Virus genome (UHGV): UHGV-1430915
Reading direction: 5' to 3' (one strand)
Length of the DNA: 64,000 nucleotides
Source: a virus
Program-made: the position numbers and the translations under genes
Part shown: positions 58,806 to 64,000 of the stretch, piece by piece
Position numbering within the stretch: position 1 is the stretch's first letter
Layout: the number at the start of each line of letters is the position of its first letter
The notes under the pieces: generated by a model
Seen by the model: the letters and a program-made list of their open reading frames with translations, nothing else
Told to the model about the DNA's origin: nothing
The model's database searches: none

Positions 58806-58850
58806 GATCATTGCTCCTTTTTGCACTGATTATTTTAACAGGGTTTAAAT

Positions 58851-58894
58851 TTACTTTATTGATGGCCCTGGAGTCAAGGCCATCTAAAAATAAA
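58851..58894. repeat. 44-bp intergenic repeat, copy 1
   Basis: ttactttattGATGGCCctggagtcaaGGCCATCtaaaaataaa; 7-bp inverted repeat; TTGACT on minus strand in loop. Confidence 0.85.
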
Positions 58895-58896
58895 TT

Positions 58897-59097
58897 TTAC
58901 AGATCTACAATCTCTTTAATTCGTTTTACTGCTGCCTCAGCGCCTTGAGGGTAGAAATTATGATAACCAATCACGCGGGTAATACTGATCGCCGCTTGGT
59001 GGTCCTCGTAGTCGCCTTTGAATATTTCTTGACCATCAACCAGCACAGCAATTTTTTCTTCTTTTTTGAAGTTAATAACGCGGATATTGTTGCTCAT
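58897..59097 (-). CDS. hypothetical protein
   Basis: 66 aa; leader hairpin GGGGAG-tgt-CTCCCC. Confidence 0.5.
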   Translation of the reverse strand: MSNNIRVINFKKEEKIAVLVDGQEIFKGDYEDHQAAISITRVIGYHNFYPQGAEAAVKRIKEIVDL

Positions 59098-60489: not shown

Positions 60490-61113
60490 TTATGAAAAAC
60501 TCATCTCCCCATATTCATCCACATCAAACCGCCAATCATTGGCTTCAATAAGGCCGATCAGGTTTTCGGTAGTAAACTGTTCAAGATAGGCCCCCTCCAG
60601 GTCTACGTAAACCTTGCGGGATAGCTCCCGTACCGTCTCGGTGATCAGCTCTTCCAGCTCTTCAACTTTATCCTCTTGCTTGGTGGTCAGGTCTAGCCAA
60701 TTAGTATCGATGCACCCTCCTATTGTGTTTTCGTGGTGATAATGGCTAAACGGGATACGTTCAACACTAGCTGATAACTCGCCATCGTGCATTGTGCCGA
60801 ACAAGTGACGAATTGATCGGAACTTGGTCAGGGCCTTGACTTTACGCAAGAATTTTTCTAAATCCACGTTTTCAGCACTGATTGACGCGCCATCGCCTTG
60901 ACACCAAAAGCCGGACCAACGTACTTCGGTATCTTCAAGGCCGTACTCTGGAAAGACATATTCTTTATAGTGTTCAATTACGCTTTCTGCAAAAAAATTA
61001 TCCCCGCTGTGTTCTTCTCTTTCGCGTACCATTTCAATGGCTTTTTCTTTTTGTTCGTCGGTCAGCACGTCGAAAGATAAATTGTAACCTGTGGTAATGT
61101 TAACGGTGGTCAT
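60490..61113 (-). CDS. hypothetical acidic protein
   Basis: 207 aa; own promoter and leader hairpin. Confidence 0.55.
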   Translation of the reverse strand: MTTVNITTGYNLSFDVLTDEQKEKAIEMVREREEHSGDNFFAESVIEHYKEYVFPEYGLEDTEVRWSGFWCQGDGASISAENVDLEKFLRKVKALTKFRSIRHLFGTMHDGELSASVERIPFSHYHHENTIGGCIDTNWLDLTTKQEDKVEELEELITETVRELSRKVYVDLEGAYLEQFTTENLIGLIEANDWRFDVDEYGEMSFS

Positions 61114-61130: not shown

Positions 61131-61149
61131 TCTTTGTTAGTGGCGGGAA
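61131..61149 (-). promoter_or_regulatory. conserved 5'-leader hairpin GGCGGGAA-N4-TTCCCGCC
   Basis: perfect 7-8 bp stem just downstream of predicted transcription start; near-identical copy at 63661-63679, partial copy at 62983-62995. Confidence 0.5.
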
Positions 61150-61159
61150 GTTTTCCCGC

Positions 61160-61187
61160 CTGTGTGTTTAATTATACTTATTGAGAT
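61160..61187 (-). promoter_or_regulatory. sigma70-like promoter
   Basis: minus strand TTGACA-16 nt-TATAAT. Confidence 0.65.
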
Positions 61188-61448
61188 TTACTTGTCAACA
61201 CTATTTTTTAAATTATTGTGGCGCAAAATGTTTAAAATCTCTTCAACGTCATCAACACGGCGGCAATTTTTAAACGCTACCAATTGCCCCATGATTTTAA
61301 TCACTGGGCGGCCTTGCCAGTGCCCTTGGAGAAAGCGCGCCTTGACTTTATCGGTGGAACTATCACGCCACCAAATAGCCTTGTTGTTGCAGTAGTAAAA
61401 ATTATTCAGGATAACATCAACTTTATCAAAATTTTTTAATTTACGCAT
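61188..61448 (-). CDS. hypothetical protein
   Basis: 86-aa ORF with promoter at 61481-61509. Confidence 0.5.
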   Translation of the reverse strand: MRKLKNFDKVDVILNNFYYCNNKAIWWRDSSTDKVKARFLQGHWQGRPVIKIMGQLVAFKNCRRVDDVEEILNILRHNNLKNSVDK

Positions 61449-62207: not shown

Positions 62208-62283
62208 GTGTACTTTCTCCTTTCATGGTGTTAATAAATTATCTTTATAGATGGCCCTGCAACCAGGACCACCGAAAAAATAA

Positions 62284-62529
62284 CTATTTCACAATGCCTA
62301 CAAAACAGATCCCACCTTCACCTATGTAAGCAATATCGGTAACTTTATAATTTGTCAAGATCTGTTTATTTAGTTCATTAATAAAATCGGTCATTGCGTT
62401 GGTGTAGTTGTCTTCCATATCTAAGGCATAATCCCAGGCGTAAACCTTTTTACGTCCGAAGCCTTTTACCATGATACGGGCGCTTTTGGTGTTGGTGGGC
62501 GCATAATATTTGGTGATTAGTGCTGCCAT
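62284..62529 (-). CDS. hypothetical protein
   Basis: 81-aa ORF downstream of repeat copy 2, GAGGAG RBS. Confidence 0.5.
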   Translation of the reverse strand: MAALITKYYAPTNTKSARIMVKGFGRKKVYAWDYALDMEDNYTNAMTDFINELNKQILTNYKVTDIAYIGEGGICFVGIVK

Positions 62530-62570
62530 GGTTTTAACTCCTCATTAGTTCAGTGTTAACAGTGTAAAGT

Positions 62571-62614
62571 TTACTTTATTGATGGCCCTGGAGTCAAGGC
62601 CATCTAAAAATAAA
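62571..62614. repeat. 44-bp intergenic repeat, copy 2
   Basis: identical to 58851-58894. Confidence 0.85.
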
Positions 62615-62615
62615 T

Positions 62616-62957
62616 TTACTCGTTTTCTTCCAGCTCTGAAAGCTCTTCTTTCACTTCTTCGAGCTCTGTCTGCAATTCTTGGTACTCTTCATCGTCCTCA
62701 ATATCCAGGCTGTCGATGTAGTCGCTAAATCCGCAGCGGTAAGCGATAGGATCTAGCTCCTTGAGGATACGCGACGGAAGAAAAGAAATGTTTCCGATCA
62801 TAATTTCGCCGTAGATCTCGTCTAACCATTCATCATAGTTTTCGTCGTACTTGTCCTCGTCGATTTCAAAGTTATCGATCTTGTTCTCAAGGTCTGCGAT
62901 CTGTTTTTTCAGCGCGGCGATCTGCATAGCTTTTTCTGCGGCGGTCATAGTAGTCAT
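62616..62957 (-). CDS. highly acidic coiled-coil protein (candidate DNA mimic)
   Basis: 113 aa, very Asp/Glu-rich C-terminal half. Confidence 0.55.
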   Translation of the reverse strand: MTTMTAAEKAMQIAALKKQIADLENKIDNFEIDEDKYDENYDEWLDEIYGEIMIGNISFLPSRILKELDPIAYRCGFSDYIDSLDIEDDEEYQELQTELEEVKEELSELEENE

Positions 62958-63008
62958 GGTGTTTTCTCCTTTTGTGTGTTCTGGGAAGTTTTCCCGTTTA
63001 CGTGTTTA

Positions 63009-63036
63009 AGTATACCGATTTGGGTTAGCTTGTCAA
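63009..63036 (-). promoter_or_regulatory. sigma70-like promoter
   Basis: minus strand TTGACA-16 nt-TATACT; followed by leader hairpin 62983-62995. Confidence 0.6.
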
Positions 63037-63191
63037 TTAAAAATTTAAGAAAAATTTTGCAAAACTGTTGGCGCTACTCATTAACATTTGCGCCAGGATG
63101 TAACCGACAACGCAAACGATAATAGTTACCTTTGTGTATTGGCGTGTAGTGCTCATCTTAAAGCCCCCTTTTTCGCTTAACTGAGATTAGT

Positions 63192-63235
63192 TTACTTTAT
63201 TGATGGCCCTGGAGTCAAGGCCATCTAAAAATAAA
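63192..63235. repeat. 44-bp intergenic repeat, copy 3
   Basis: identical core to 58851-58894. Confidence 0.85.
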
Positions 63236-63236
63236 C

Positions 63237-63641
63237 TTAGTAAGTTTTCAGTACTTTCCCGTCCAACCTGTCAAGCTGGATCTCGATAGCTGCAGAAAAC
63301 CTATTGTACACCACGTCGCCCATGGAATCCAACCAGTCTATGACGTTATACACTTGCTCTTTGTTCTTGCAGGTCCGGATCCGTTTCATGATGTAAGCCG
63401 GATCAATATTGGTGCTCTCGTTGGTGCTCCCCTGTACCTGGTTTGCCGTATTAGTCACATCTTTAATGGCCTTTACCACCACCTGGAAGGGCTTTAAGGT
63501 GCCTTTTGCGTTCATCTCACGCGCTTTTGCGGCGCGGTTGTTATAGGTTACACAACGGCGGCAAATGTTCACCAAATGCATGTCAATAATTTTTTCATCG
63601 TTTGCCAGTTCGTTCATGATGCGGCGTACGTTCTTATTCAT
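63237..63641 (-). CDS. hypothetical protein
   Basis: 134-aa ORF with promoter and leader hairpin. Confidence 0.55.
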   Translation of the reverse strand: MNKNVRRIMNELANDEKIIDMHLVNICRRCVTYNNRAAKAREMNAKGTLKPFQVVVKAIKDVTNTANQVQGSTNESTNIDPAYIMKRIRTCKNKEQVYNVIDWLDSMGDVVYNRFSAAIEIQLDRLDGKVLKTY

Positions 63642-63660
63642 GATCTTTTTCCTTTGTGTT

Positions 63661-63679
63661 GGCGGGAAACATTCCCGCC
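63661..63679 (-). promoter_or_regulatory. conserved 5'-leader hairpin GGCGGGAA-N4-TTCCCGCC
   Basis: second copy of the hairpin at 61131-61149. Confidence 0.5.
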
Positions 63680-63689
63680 TTTTGTGACT

Positions 63690-63717
63690 AGTTTACTTGA
63701 ATTTTGCAGCGTGTCAA
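63690..63717 (-). promoter_or_regulatory. sigma70-like promoter (weaker -10)
   Basis: minus strand TTGACA-16 nt-TAAACT. Confidence 0.45.
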
Positions 63718-63722
63718 CAATT

Positions 63723-63966
63723 TTTATTCGTGGGCGCATGTTACAATGTGCTTTTTATAGCCCAGGTGGTTAGCAAGTGCCGACAAAAACTCTTCTTCAT
63801 AGATCCAGCCGTTGGCAGTGATCCCCATAGCATTTAATGCGCTCTCAAGTGCTGCATTAGCTTTATCGTAGCCGTGACCGCTCGCCTTCCCGCCAGTATA
63901 ACCGTACTTATTGTTCTTGTTGTCGTGAATCCAAAAAACGCAGTATTGAGTGTTCCCGCTGGCGGC
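63723..63966 (-). CDS. hypothetical protein, partial (C-terminal part; 5' end lost at contig end)
   Basis: open frame on minus strand from adapter junction down to TAA at 63723-63725 (...GHGYDKANAALESALNAMGITANGWIYEEEF...). Confidence 0.4.
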
Positions 63967-64000
63967 AGATCGGAAGAGCGTCGTGTAGGGAAAGAGTGTA
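63967..64000. other. Illumina TruSeq adapter (sequencing artifact, not biological)
   Basis: agatcggaagagcgtcgtgtagggaaagagtgta matches the standard adapter AGATCGGAAGAGCGTCGTGTAGGGAAAGAGTGT. Confidence 0.95.

What the first reader, a model, noticed from the sequence alone, without database searches (positions are those of the whole stretch)
62616..62957. Highly acidic 113-aa coiled-coil protein: candidate DNA-mimic anti-restriction factor
The product is extremely Asp/Glu-rich (for example DEDKYDENYDEWLDEIYGE and DIEDDEEYQELQTELEEVKEELSELEENE) with predicted coiled-coil character, a size and charge profile like Ocr and ArdA-type DNA mimics. It is flanked on both sides by the 44-bp repeat and has its own promoter and leader hairpin.
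Basis: inference. Interest (0 to 1): 0.5.

Follow-up and report, generated by a model that had tools for sequence, protein, structure and literature searches.

The report
Very acidic early phage protein, function unproven
This is a real, conserved early gene of an rV5-like E. coli phage whose product is as small and as negatively charged as the T7 anti-restriction protein Ocr but is unrelated to any known DNA mimic, so it is a good, still unproven, candidate inhibitor of a host DNA-handling enzyme.

Summary
The ORF at 62616-62957 (minus strand) encodes 113 aa with 35 Asp/Glu and net charge -26. It is the most acidic ORF in the window and in the non-structural half of phage FV3. It has a near-consensus sigma-70 promoter, a Shine-Dalgarno site and heptad-repeat terminal helices.

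The window is a Vequintavirus (rV5/FV3-like coliphage), and the protein is identical to the hypothetical protein FV3_00176.

The conserved part is not the acidic tails. It is a compact ~55-aa core (YDxxLDE…SRxLKELDPIAYRCGFSDY) found in more than 3,800 protein clusters of virulent phages, with no Pfam or NCBIfam model. Every member examined is net negative.

Sequence and fold searches find no relation to Ocr, ArdA, T7 gp5.9 or the T5 PARIS triggers.

Circumstantial support for an anti-restriction role comes from published raw plating data. Vequintaviruses are almost unrestricted by type I systems (EOP 0.2-0.9 with 9-15 EcoKI sites in the genomes read) but are strongly restricted by EcoRI and EcoRV. 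That evidence points to no particular gene.

Most likely this is an early polyanionic decoy for a host DNA-binding enzyme, with type I R-M or RecBCD as candidate targets. It is a functional analogue at most, not a family member.

The parts
62616..62957 (-). CDS of 113 aa, net charge -26; orthologue of FV3_00176 and bas59_0104; member of phrog_9294
62688..62864 (-). Conserved core mini-domain, residues 32-90: helix, beta-hairpin, helix, helix. Signature residues: Y41 D42 L45 D46 E47 ... S62 L65 K66 E67 D69 P70 A72 Y73 R74 C75 G76 D79 Y80
62874..62942 (-). N-terminal heptad-repeat helix (residues 6-28), about neutral in charge; variable or absent in relatives
62625..62690 (-). C-terminal strongly acidic heptad-repeat helix (residues 90-111); variable or absent in relatives; weak local similarity to the T7 gp5.9 coiled coil
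62966..62971 (-). Shine-Dalgarno sequence AAGGAG, 8 nt upstream of the ATG
   Evidence: read directly from the sequence
62983..62995 (-). Short 5'-leader hairpin (GGGAA-AAC-UUCCC); weak on its own, but part of a repeated promoter-leader module
63009..63036 (-). Sigma-70-type promoter TTGACA-16-TATACT (11 of 12 consensus positions)
62556..62618 (-). Intergenic repeat that starts at the stop codon. A 10-bp G+C stem (62581-62604) is extended by a U-rich 5' arm and an A-rich 3' arm. It is not a canonical terminator
63177..63239 (-). Upstream copy of the same repeat (hairpin 63202-63225); it follows the stop codon of the 134-aa ORF
63037..63156 (-). 39-aa hydrophobic ORF (phrog_16391) lying between the upstream repeat and the promoter of the 113-aa gene

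Best explanation
The gene is most likely transcribed early by host RNA polymerase from its own near-consensus sigma-70 promoter. It makes a small polyanionic protein. A conserved ~55-aa acidic alpha/beta mini-domain forms the functional module. In this phage it is probably carried at the tip of an antiparallel coiled-coil stalk formed by the N- and C-terminal helices.

I think it most likely acts stoichiometrically as a decoy. It would occupy the positively charged nucleic-acid-binding surface of a host DNA-handling enzyme that threatens incoming phage DNA. Type I restriction-modification is the leading candidate target and RecBCD the second. In other words, it would work like a DNA mimic without belonging to the Ocr, ArdA or gp5.9 families.

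Shown here: the ORF, its composition, its conservation, the family, the predicted secondary structure, the promoter consensus, and the absence of known homologues. Inferred: early expression, the helix packing, the oligomeric state, the decoy mechanism and the target.
For: - **Charge and size.** Almost identical to Ocr, and the most acidic ORF in about 87 kb of the genome.
- **Acidity is a family trait.** It holds in both core and flanks across 220 members. Conserved acidic columns are D42/E43, D46/E47, E67, D69 and D79.
- **Early-gene position.** The gene has a consensus host promoter. In Providencia podophage PS3 two paralogues are among the first ORFs after the annotated host-type early promoters at the genome left end. 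T7 gene 0.3 occupies the same kind of position.
- **Distribution.** The family is confined to virulent phages. There are no plasmid hits apart from one record that looks like a mis-filed rV5-like phage genome, and almost none in 185,579 bacterial genomes. It spans hosts from Proteobacteria to Actinobacteria, which fits a generic or universal target.
- **Tandem cores.** Some relatives carry two cores in tandem, suggesting a two-module functional unit like dimeric mimics.
- **Phenotype of the phage genus.** Vequintaviruses are nearly immune to type I R-M only: EcoKI EOP 0.22-0.90 and EcoCFT_I 0.50-2.0, against EcoRI ~1e-3 or lower and EcoRV 3e-7 or lower. Lambda-vir plates at 3e-5 on EcoKI.
- **Local similarity to a proven mimic.** Residues 80-111 resemble the coiled coil of T7 gp5.9, a structurally proven DNA mimic (BLASTP E 2e-4, hhalign probability 47%; PMC9836394).
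Against: - No homology or fold similarity to any known DNA mimic. The Pfam gp5.9 model does not match.
- The strongest conservation lies in a compact motif with many non-acidic residues (S62, L65, P70, A72, Y73, G76). That looks more like a specific protein-protein interface or a folding core than generic phosphate mimicry.
- The acidic coiled-coil arms are dispensable in the family.
- Type-I insensitivity is also seen in N4, phi92-like and Felix-O1-like phages, so it does not single out this gene.
- The BASEL authors conclude that these phages lack effective protection against RM in general (PMC8594841).
- The similarity to gp5.9 is close to background. The best of 6,289 unrelated ORFs scores 12.8 bits against 14.8 for the Vequintavirus proteins, and it is confined to the Vequintavirus subfamily.
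- I could not inspect model coordinates, so DNA-like charge spacing is untested.
Confidence: 0.4

Rival explanations
1. Specific host-takeover factor. The conserved core binds one particular conserved host protein, such as RNA polymerase, a sigma factor, a replication or division protein, or a protease. Binding uses a shaped interface. The negative charge is incidental or serves solubility, and no nucleic-acid mimicry is involved.
For: - Near-invariant non-acidic positions: S62, L65, D69-P70, A72, Y73 and G76 are each 92-99% conserved over 198 non-redundant domains.
- Core-only relatives of 51-80 aa exist.
- The gene sits in early-gene-like blocks of small ORFs in many unrelated phages.
- Many proteins in this window are acidic anyway.
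Against: - The family spans phages of very different hosts, so a single protein target would have to be universally conserved.
- Net negative charge is kept in every member and in the variable flanks as well. That is not expected if charge were incidental.
Confidence: 0.3
2. One reading: an Ocr/ArdA-type B-DNA mimic whose specific job is to block type I restriction-modification enzymes, and possibly BREX.
For: - Size and charge equal to Ocr.
- A host-type promoter.
- The genus-wide phenotype is nearly specific to type I. All 12 BASEL Vequintaviruses plate at EOP 0.22-0.90 on EcoKI and 0.50-2.0 on EcoCFT_I, and are strongly restricted by EcoRI and EcoRV. Type III results are mixed: some of these phages plate at 0.06-0.40 on EcoCFT_II or EcoP1.
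- Comparators lacking a known anti-type-I function are restricted 1e-3 to 1e-5 in the same assay.
- One of those 12 phages (Bas59) carries a 96% identical orthologue.
Against: - Not homologous or structurally similar to Ocr or ArdA.
- Absent from plasmids, where ArdA-type genes live.
- The phenotype maps to no gene. The FV3 record annotates about 220 features, most of them hypothetical proteins in the stretch read.
- Phages not known to carry this domain show the same type I insensitivity.
Confidence: 0.2
3. A phage-internal helper rather than an anti-host factor. Examples would be a prefoldin-like chaperone or assembly factor, or an acidic escort for a basic phage DNA-binding protein.
For: - The topology (N-helix, central beta-hairpin module, C-helix) gives prefoldin beta as the top, though non-significant, PDB match (E about 1, TM 0.43-0.45; prefoldin subunit 6, E 0.011 on the C-terminal helix only).
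- In some metagenomic phage contigs the gene lies near a large ORF that looks like a terminase by inspection, found in 14 of 78 loci.
Against: - The scores are at noise level and are driven by coiled-coil content.
- The gene has a host-type promoter and sits among small early-type ORFs, not in the structural module.
- Core-only relatives lack the helices that make the prefoldin-like shape.
Confidence: 0.08

Closest known systems
T7 Ocr (gp0.3), DNA-mimic inhibitor of type I R-M and BREX
   Same: Nearly the same length and charge: 117 aa, 34 acidic, 6 basic against 113 aa, 35 acidic, 9 basic. Both are mainly helical. Both are driven by host sigma-70-type promoters and, in some phages, sit among the first genes at the genome end.
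   Different: No sequence similarity and no fold match. This protein has a motif-rich alpha/beta core and a coiled-coil stalk, not Ocr's all-helical bent-DNA shape. Its function is untested.
ArdA (conjugative-element anti-restriction DNA mimic, PF07275)
   Same: Acidic, and proposed to act early on entry of foreign DNA.
   Different: No Pfam match and no structural match. This family is absent from the 72,556 plasmid records apart from one that looks like a mis-filed phage genome, whereas ArdA is typical of plasmids and transposons.
T7 gp5.9, coiled-coil DNA mimic that blocks RecBCD (PF25708; PMC9836394)
   Same: Small, pI about 4, with an acidic heptad helix preceded by a YIDSL motif. Local alignment: 15 of 32 identical, pairwise BLASTP E 2e-4, profile-profile probability 47%. 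It is a precedent that an acidic coiled coil can mimic DNA.
   Different: The Pfam gp5.9 model does not hit. The similarity barely exceeds the best of 6,289 background ORFs and is limited to the Vequintavirus subfamily. gp5.9 lacks the conserved core, and its coiled coil is a parallel dimer.
T5 Ptr1 and Ptr2, small acidic early proteins that trigger PARIS (PMC11464382)
   Same: Small, highly acidic phage proteins of unknown primary function.
   Different: No homologue of the core domain in the first 90 kb of T5 by HMM search.
PHROG families 9294, 9396 and 37123 (unknown function)
   Same: The protein is a full-length member of phrog_9294 (E 4e-54). Its core matches phrog_9396 and phrog_37123.
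   Different: These are unannotated clusters. They do not record the common core, its scale (3,818 clusters at 50% identity) or its conserved acidity.
Prefoldin beta subunit (fold resemblance only)
   Same: N-helix, beta-hairpin-containing centre, C-helix, with the two long helices probably antiparallel.
   Different: Scores are not significant. The centre carries three extra helices, and there is no sequence relationship.

Membership tests
Ocr (T7 gp0.3; PF08684) | Sequence homology to Ocr | tested here: not met
   No Pfam hit. BLASTP finds no alignment at E <= 100. hhalign probability 1%.
Ocr (T7 gp0.3; PF08684) | Ocr fold (elongated all-helical dimer shaped like bent B-DNA) | tested here: not met
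Ocr (T7 gp0.3; PF08684) | About 115 aa, about 30% acidic, pI about 4 | tested here: met
   113 aa, 35 acidic, net -26, against 117 aa, 34 acidic, net -28 for Ocr.
Ocr (T7 gp0.3; PF08684) | Surface carboxylates spaced like DNA phosphates; homodimer | not testable with these tools
Ocr (T7 gp0.3; PF08684) | Inhibits type I R-M in vivo and in vitro | not testable with these tools
   Indirect only. Vequintaviruses plate at EOP 0.22-0.90 on EcoKI, with 9-15 sites in the genomes read. This is not gene-specific.
ArdA (PF07275) | Pfam or sequence match and the three-domain elongated fold | tested here: not met
   No Pfam hit. Does not appear in the listed structural matches.
ArdA (PF07275) | Carried on conjugative plasmids or transposons | tested here: not met
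   tblastn against 72,556 plasmids gives 1 hit, a 137.6-kb record that appears to be an rV5-like phage genome.
T7 gp5.9 RecBCD inhibitor (PF25708) | Match to the Pfam model | tested here: not met
   PF25708 hits gp5.9 (27.8 bits) but not the C-terminal 46 aa of this protein at E <= 10.
T7 gp5.9 RecBCD inhibitor (PF25708) | Remote homology by profile-profile comparison | tested here: inconclusive
   hhalign of A1 against A4 gives probability 46.7% over 31 columns. Pairwise BLASTP E 2e-4. The background control scores 12.8 against 14.8 bits.
phrog_9294 | Full-length HMM match | tested here: met
   E 4.2e-54 over residues 1-113.
T5 PARIS triggers Ptr1/Ptr2 | Homologue present in T5 | tested here: not met
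   Core HMM against six-frame ORFs of T5 1-90 kb: best E 0.24.
Prefoldin beta | Significant fold or sequence match | tested here: not met
   Foldseek E 1.0, TM 0.43-0.45. The sequence hit (E 0.011) covers the C-terminal helix only.

The most novel reading that the evidence does not exclude
The conserved YDxxLDE…SRxLKELDPIAYRCGxxDY mini-domain defines a large, undescribed class of phage anti-defence proteins. The class would have a new fold and act as nucleic-acid mimics against type I restriction, and perhaps against RecBCD or BREX. It would explain why Vequintaviruses are nearly immune to type I R-M despite carrying many sites. The same module would be used by thousands of virulent phages from enteric to marine hosts, including as tandem modules in large polyproteins.
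Probability: 0.2. Interest if true: 0.75.

Novelty: new variant of a known kind. Interest (0 to 1): 0.45.

Why it matters
Small acidic early proteins are a proven source of broad-spectrum anti-defence factors. A recent catalogue lists only 11 DNA-mimic anti-defence proteins (10.1101/2025.06.06.658234).

This one belongs to a family of more than 3,800 sequence clusters with no Pfam or NCBIfam model and no matching paper found. It sits in phages used for biocontrol and therapy of E. coli O157. If it blocks type I R-M or RecBCD, three things follow:
- it would explain a genus-wide phenotype visible in published raw data;
- it would add a new fold to the DNA-mimic repertoire;
- it would give a portable tool for overcoming restriction barriers.

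If it does not, it remains a widespread, well-defined domain whose host target is worth finding.

Tried and rejected
**Annotation libraries.** Pfam, NCBIfam and PADLOC gave only coiled-coil noise such as GvpG, HalX, SlyX and LmuB. The names some sources attach to homologues (GvpG, SbcCD ATPase, Zn-ribbon, CwlO-like) have the same cause and were rejected.

**Domain fusions.** Twenty longer relatives gave only DUF3849 and DUF6894 in two proteins.

**Conserved neighbours.** Across 78 IMG/VR loci there is no consistent partner gene. A large ORF that looks like a terminase by inspection occurs in 14 loci.

**Position near contig ends.** 12 of 50 long contigs have the gene within 3 kb of an end, against 5.5 expected. 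Orientation is mixed, so this is inconclusive.

**T5 Ptr1/Ptr2 relationship.** No homologue found.

**gp5.9 relationship.** Weak and probably convergent.

**Literature.** Searches for the motif, the PHROG ids, and Vequintavirus anti-restriction or anti-defence found nothing specific.

**The intergenic repeat.** Rfam has no family for it. A canonical terminator reading was rejected because the U-rich tract precedes the stem and the A-rich tract follows it on both strands.

Full report
**What is there.**
- It has 13 Asp and 22 Glu against 7 Lys and 2 Arg, giving net charge -26 and pI about 4.05.
- It is the most acidic of 181 ATG-started ORFs of at least 60 aa in the window.
- Its identical orthologue is the most acidic of 171 ORFs of at least 50 aa in FV3 87-137 kb.
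- T7 Ocr, read from NC_001604, is 117 aa with 34 acidic and 6 basic residues, net -28. The size-and-charge comparison is therefore accurate.

**Where it is.** The last 4 kb of the window matches 130 phage records at 90-99% identity. Nearly all are Vequintavirus (rV5/FV3-like E. coli myophages).
- The protein is 100% identical to the hypothetical protein FV3_00176. The two genes differ by 5 synonymous and 0 non-synonymous substitutions.
- The gene lies in a long leftward-transcribed block. That block starts with rIIB, helicase, primase and DNA polymerase and continues through about 50 small hypothetical ORFs.
- None of ten neighbouring proteins has a significant Pfam match. All fall in PHROGs of unknown function.

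**Signals around the gene.**
- A TTGACA-16-TATACT promoter (11 of 12 consensus positions) lies at 63036->63009 on the minus strand.
- AAGGAG sits 8 nt before the ATG.
- The leader hairpin is a 5-bp stem that is not significant alone. It belongs to a promoter-leader module that recurs at 61133-61198 (family D2).

**The 44-bp repeat.** It occurs as three perfect copies plus one degenerate copy. Each begins at the stop codon of a gene.
- On the minus-strand RNA it forms a 10-bp G+C stem extended by a U-rich 5' arm and an A-rich 3' arm. Free energy is about -25 kcal/mol, with z of -5.7 and -7.0.
- It is not a canonical terminator on either strand.
- In the degenerate copy, three substitutions in the 5' arm keep pairing through G-U or C-G pairs. 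That works only in the minus-sense RNA (read).
- The upstream copy is separated from this gene by a 39-aa ORF and the promoter. 'Flanked on both sides' is therefore only loosely true.

**The family.** A word-indexed search found 76 relatives. Aligning them showed that the conserved part is not the acidic tails. It is a ~55-aa core, YDxxLDExYGxxxIxGxxFxxSRxLKELDPIAYRCGFSDYxDSL.
- A profile of this core finds 3,818 representative clusters (50% identity) at E <= 1e-3, and 1,655 at E <= 1e-10.
- Over 198 non-redundant domains the near-invariant positions, in window numbering, are Y41, L45, D46, S62, L65, D69, P70, A72, Y73, G76 and D79.
- Of 220 members, 30 are 80 aa or shorter and consist of little more than the core. 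Some have two cores in tandem. A few are 300-840-aa marine proteins with two N-terminal cores.
- Every member is net negative. The median is 29% Asp+Glu and about -0.21 charge per residue in both core and flanks.
- No Pfam, NCBIfam or PADLOC model covers the domain.
- Carriers include Vequintaviruses, Vibrio myophages, Providencia Kakivirus, Pseudomonas Nankokuvirus (CHA_P1) and related myophages, and Klebsiella, Citrobacter, Clavibacter, Microbacterium, Gordonia and Pseudoalteromonas phages.
- The plasmid collection has no hit except one 137.6-kb record that appears to be an rV5-like phage genome. A strict-pattern scan of 185,579 species genomes gave 5 loci: four on MAG contigs and one on an Agromyces isolate scaffold.
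- In Providencia phage PS3, two paralogues (gp02 and gp05) are among the first ORFs after the annotated host-type early promoters at the genome left end. T7 gene 0.3 holds a similar position.

**Structure.** AlphaFold2 on the 43-sequence alignment gives mean pLDDT 89. The elements are helix 6-28, helix 34-49, a beta-hairpin at 52-59, helices 61-68 and 70-83, and helix 90-111. The core alone folds the same way, with pLDDT 88. The terminal helices have heptad periodicity.
- Foldseek against the PDB finds nothing significant. The top match is prefoldin beta (E about 1, TM 0.43-0.45).
- BFVD returns only uncharacterised relatives.

**Direct tests against known mimics.**
- Ocr: no BLASTP alignment, and hhalign probability 1%.
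- T5: no homologue in the first 90 kb, so no link to the acidic PARIS triggers Ptr1 and Ptr2 (PMC11464382).
- T7 gp5.9, a proven coiled-coil DNA mimic of RecBCD (PMC9836394): residues 80-111 align with gp5.9 residues 19-46 at 47% identity. Pairwise E is 2e-4 and profile-profile probability is 47%.
- That similarity has three weaknesses. The Pfam gp5.9 model does not hit. The gp5.9 HMM scores the Vequintavirus proteins at 14.8 bits against 12.8 for the best of 6,289 unrelated ORFs. It rarely matches other family members. I treat it as a functional precedent, not as homology.

**Biological hint from published data.** The BASEL paper states that Vequintavirinae are exceptionally susceptible to RM systems (PMC8594841). 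Its raw plating data give a more specific picture.
- All 12 Vequintaviruses plate at EOP 0.22-0.90 on EcoKI and 0.50-2.0 on EcoCFT_I. The seven genomes read (Bas53-59) carry 9-15 EcoKI and 4-6 EcoCFT_I sites.
- The same phages plate at about 2e-4 to 2e-3 on EcoRI and at 3e-7 or lower on EcoRV. Type III results are mixed. Most are undetectable or low, but some reach 0.06-0.24 on EcoCFT_II and 0.27-0.40 on EcoP1.
- In the same assay lambda-vir (5 EcoKI sites) gives 3e-5, P1vir (11 sites) gives 3e-3, and P2vir gives 9e-4 on EcoCFT_I (6 sites). T7, which carries Ocr, gives 0.92.
- Bas59 carries a 96% identical orthologue.
- This is the phenotype expected if the genus encodes a type-I-specific inhibitor. 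It does not identify the gene. phi92-like phages, N4 and a Felix-O1-like phage are also type-I-insensitive, and N4 carries 7 EcoKI sites.

**Interpretation.** The evidence best fits an early, host-promoter-driven polyanionic protein. Its conserved acidic mini-domain, here mounted on a coiled-coil stalk, would bind and block the nucleic-acid-binding surface of a host DNA-handling enzyme. Type I R-M is the leading candidate and RecBCD the second (confidence about 0.4). The strict type-I reading gets about 0.2.
- The main rival is a specific, non-mimic interaction with one conserved host protein. The motif-rich core favours it (about 0.3).
- A phage-internal chaperone-like role is unlikely (about 0.08).
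- The protein is not a member of the Ocr, ArdA or gp5.9 families. At most it works like them.

**Novelty and value.** The gene itself is already catalogued as hypothetical in more than a hundred genomes. What is new here is the recognition of a very large, unmodelled, virulent-phage-specific acidic domain, and the link to the type-I-only insensitivity of the genus. The decisive experiments are simple: plasmid expression against EcoKI, BREX, RecBCD and PARIS, and a deletion mutant.

Noticed in passing
window 63967-64000: The window ends in the Illumina adapter sequence AGATCGGAAGAGCGTCGTGTAGGGAAAGAGTGT. Similarity to phage genomes stops at 63966. The source contig therefore has an untrimmed adapter at its end.
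   Followed up: partly
window 58836-58898, 62556-62618, 63177-63239; degenerate copy 62225-62287: This intergenic repeat starts at the stop codon of four minus-strand genes. It has a 10-bp G+C hairpin with a U-rich 5' arm and an A-rich 3' arm (about -25 kcal/mol, z -5.7 and -7.0). It is not a canonical terminator on either strand. In the degenerate copy pairing is kept through G-U pairs that work only in the minus-sense RNA. It has no Rfam family and is conserved in FV3. It could be an RNase III site or a 3'-end stabiliser. The loop also carries a TTGACT-18-TAAACT promoter-like match.
   Followed up: partly
window 61133-61198, 62971-63036 and about 63650-63717: A repeated promoter-plus-leader module recurs here: TTGACA-16-TATAAT, TATACT or TAAACT, followed by a GGCGGGAA..TTCCCGCC-type leader hairpin. 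The plus-strand terminator scan flags the same hairpins, although no plus-strand genes lie here.
   Followed up: no
window 60490-61113 (minus strand): A second large acidic protein lies two genes downstream. It is 207 aa with net charge -24 and belongs to phrog_5162. It has no Pfam or NCBIfam match and contains a WSGFWCQGDGA motif. It is another candidate anti-host factor in the same block.
   Followed up: partly
GenBank MG0656xx records (e.g. MG065662.1, MG065677.1); PLSDB CP057073.1: Seventeen records labelled 'Campylobacter phage' with host C. jejuni match this E. coli Vequintavirus region; the four listed are about 96% identical. A 137.6-kb E. coli 'plasmid' record carries this Vequintavirus gene and is the size of an rV5-like genome. 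Both are probably mislabelled or contaminated entries.
   Followed up: no
proteins P0077-P0083 and P0088 (marine metagenomes): These proteins of 211-840 aa begin with two tandem copies of the core domain, or carry them after a leader. Unrelated modules follow, separated by recurring AETFGAE/AESFxAE linkers. Several end in a C-terminal hydrophobic helix. They look like modular, possibly protease-processed, phage polyproteins.
   Followed up: no
PMC8594841 S1 Data and S5 Table: The paper's text calls Vequintavirinae exceptionally susceptible to RM. The raw EOPs show they are essentially unrestricted by both type I systems tested, despite many recognition sites. N4 and the phi92-like phages behave the same way.
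   Followed up: yes
L006 (Providencia phage PS3) 1683-1886 and 2931-3131: There are two paralogous core-only proteins (67 and 66 aa) among the first ORFs after the annotated host-type early promoters at the genome left end.
   Followed up: yes
FV3 (L095) record coordinates 92131-92664, 130548-131312, 132619-133962: The related phage FV3 has three annotated DNA methyltransferases. These could contribute to RM evasion independently of the acidic protein.
   Followed up: no
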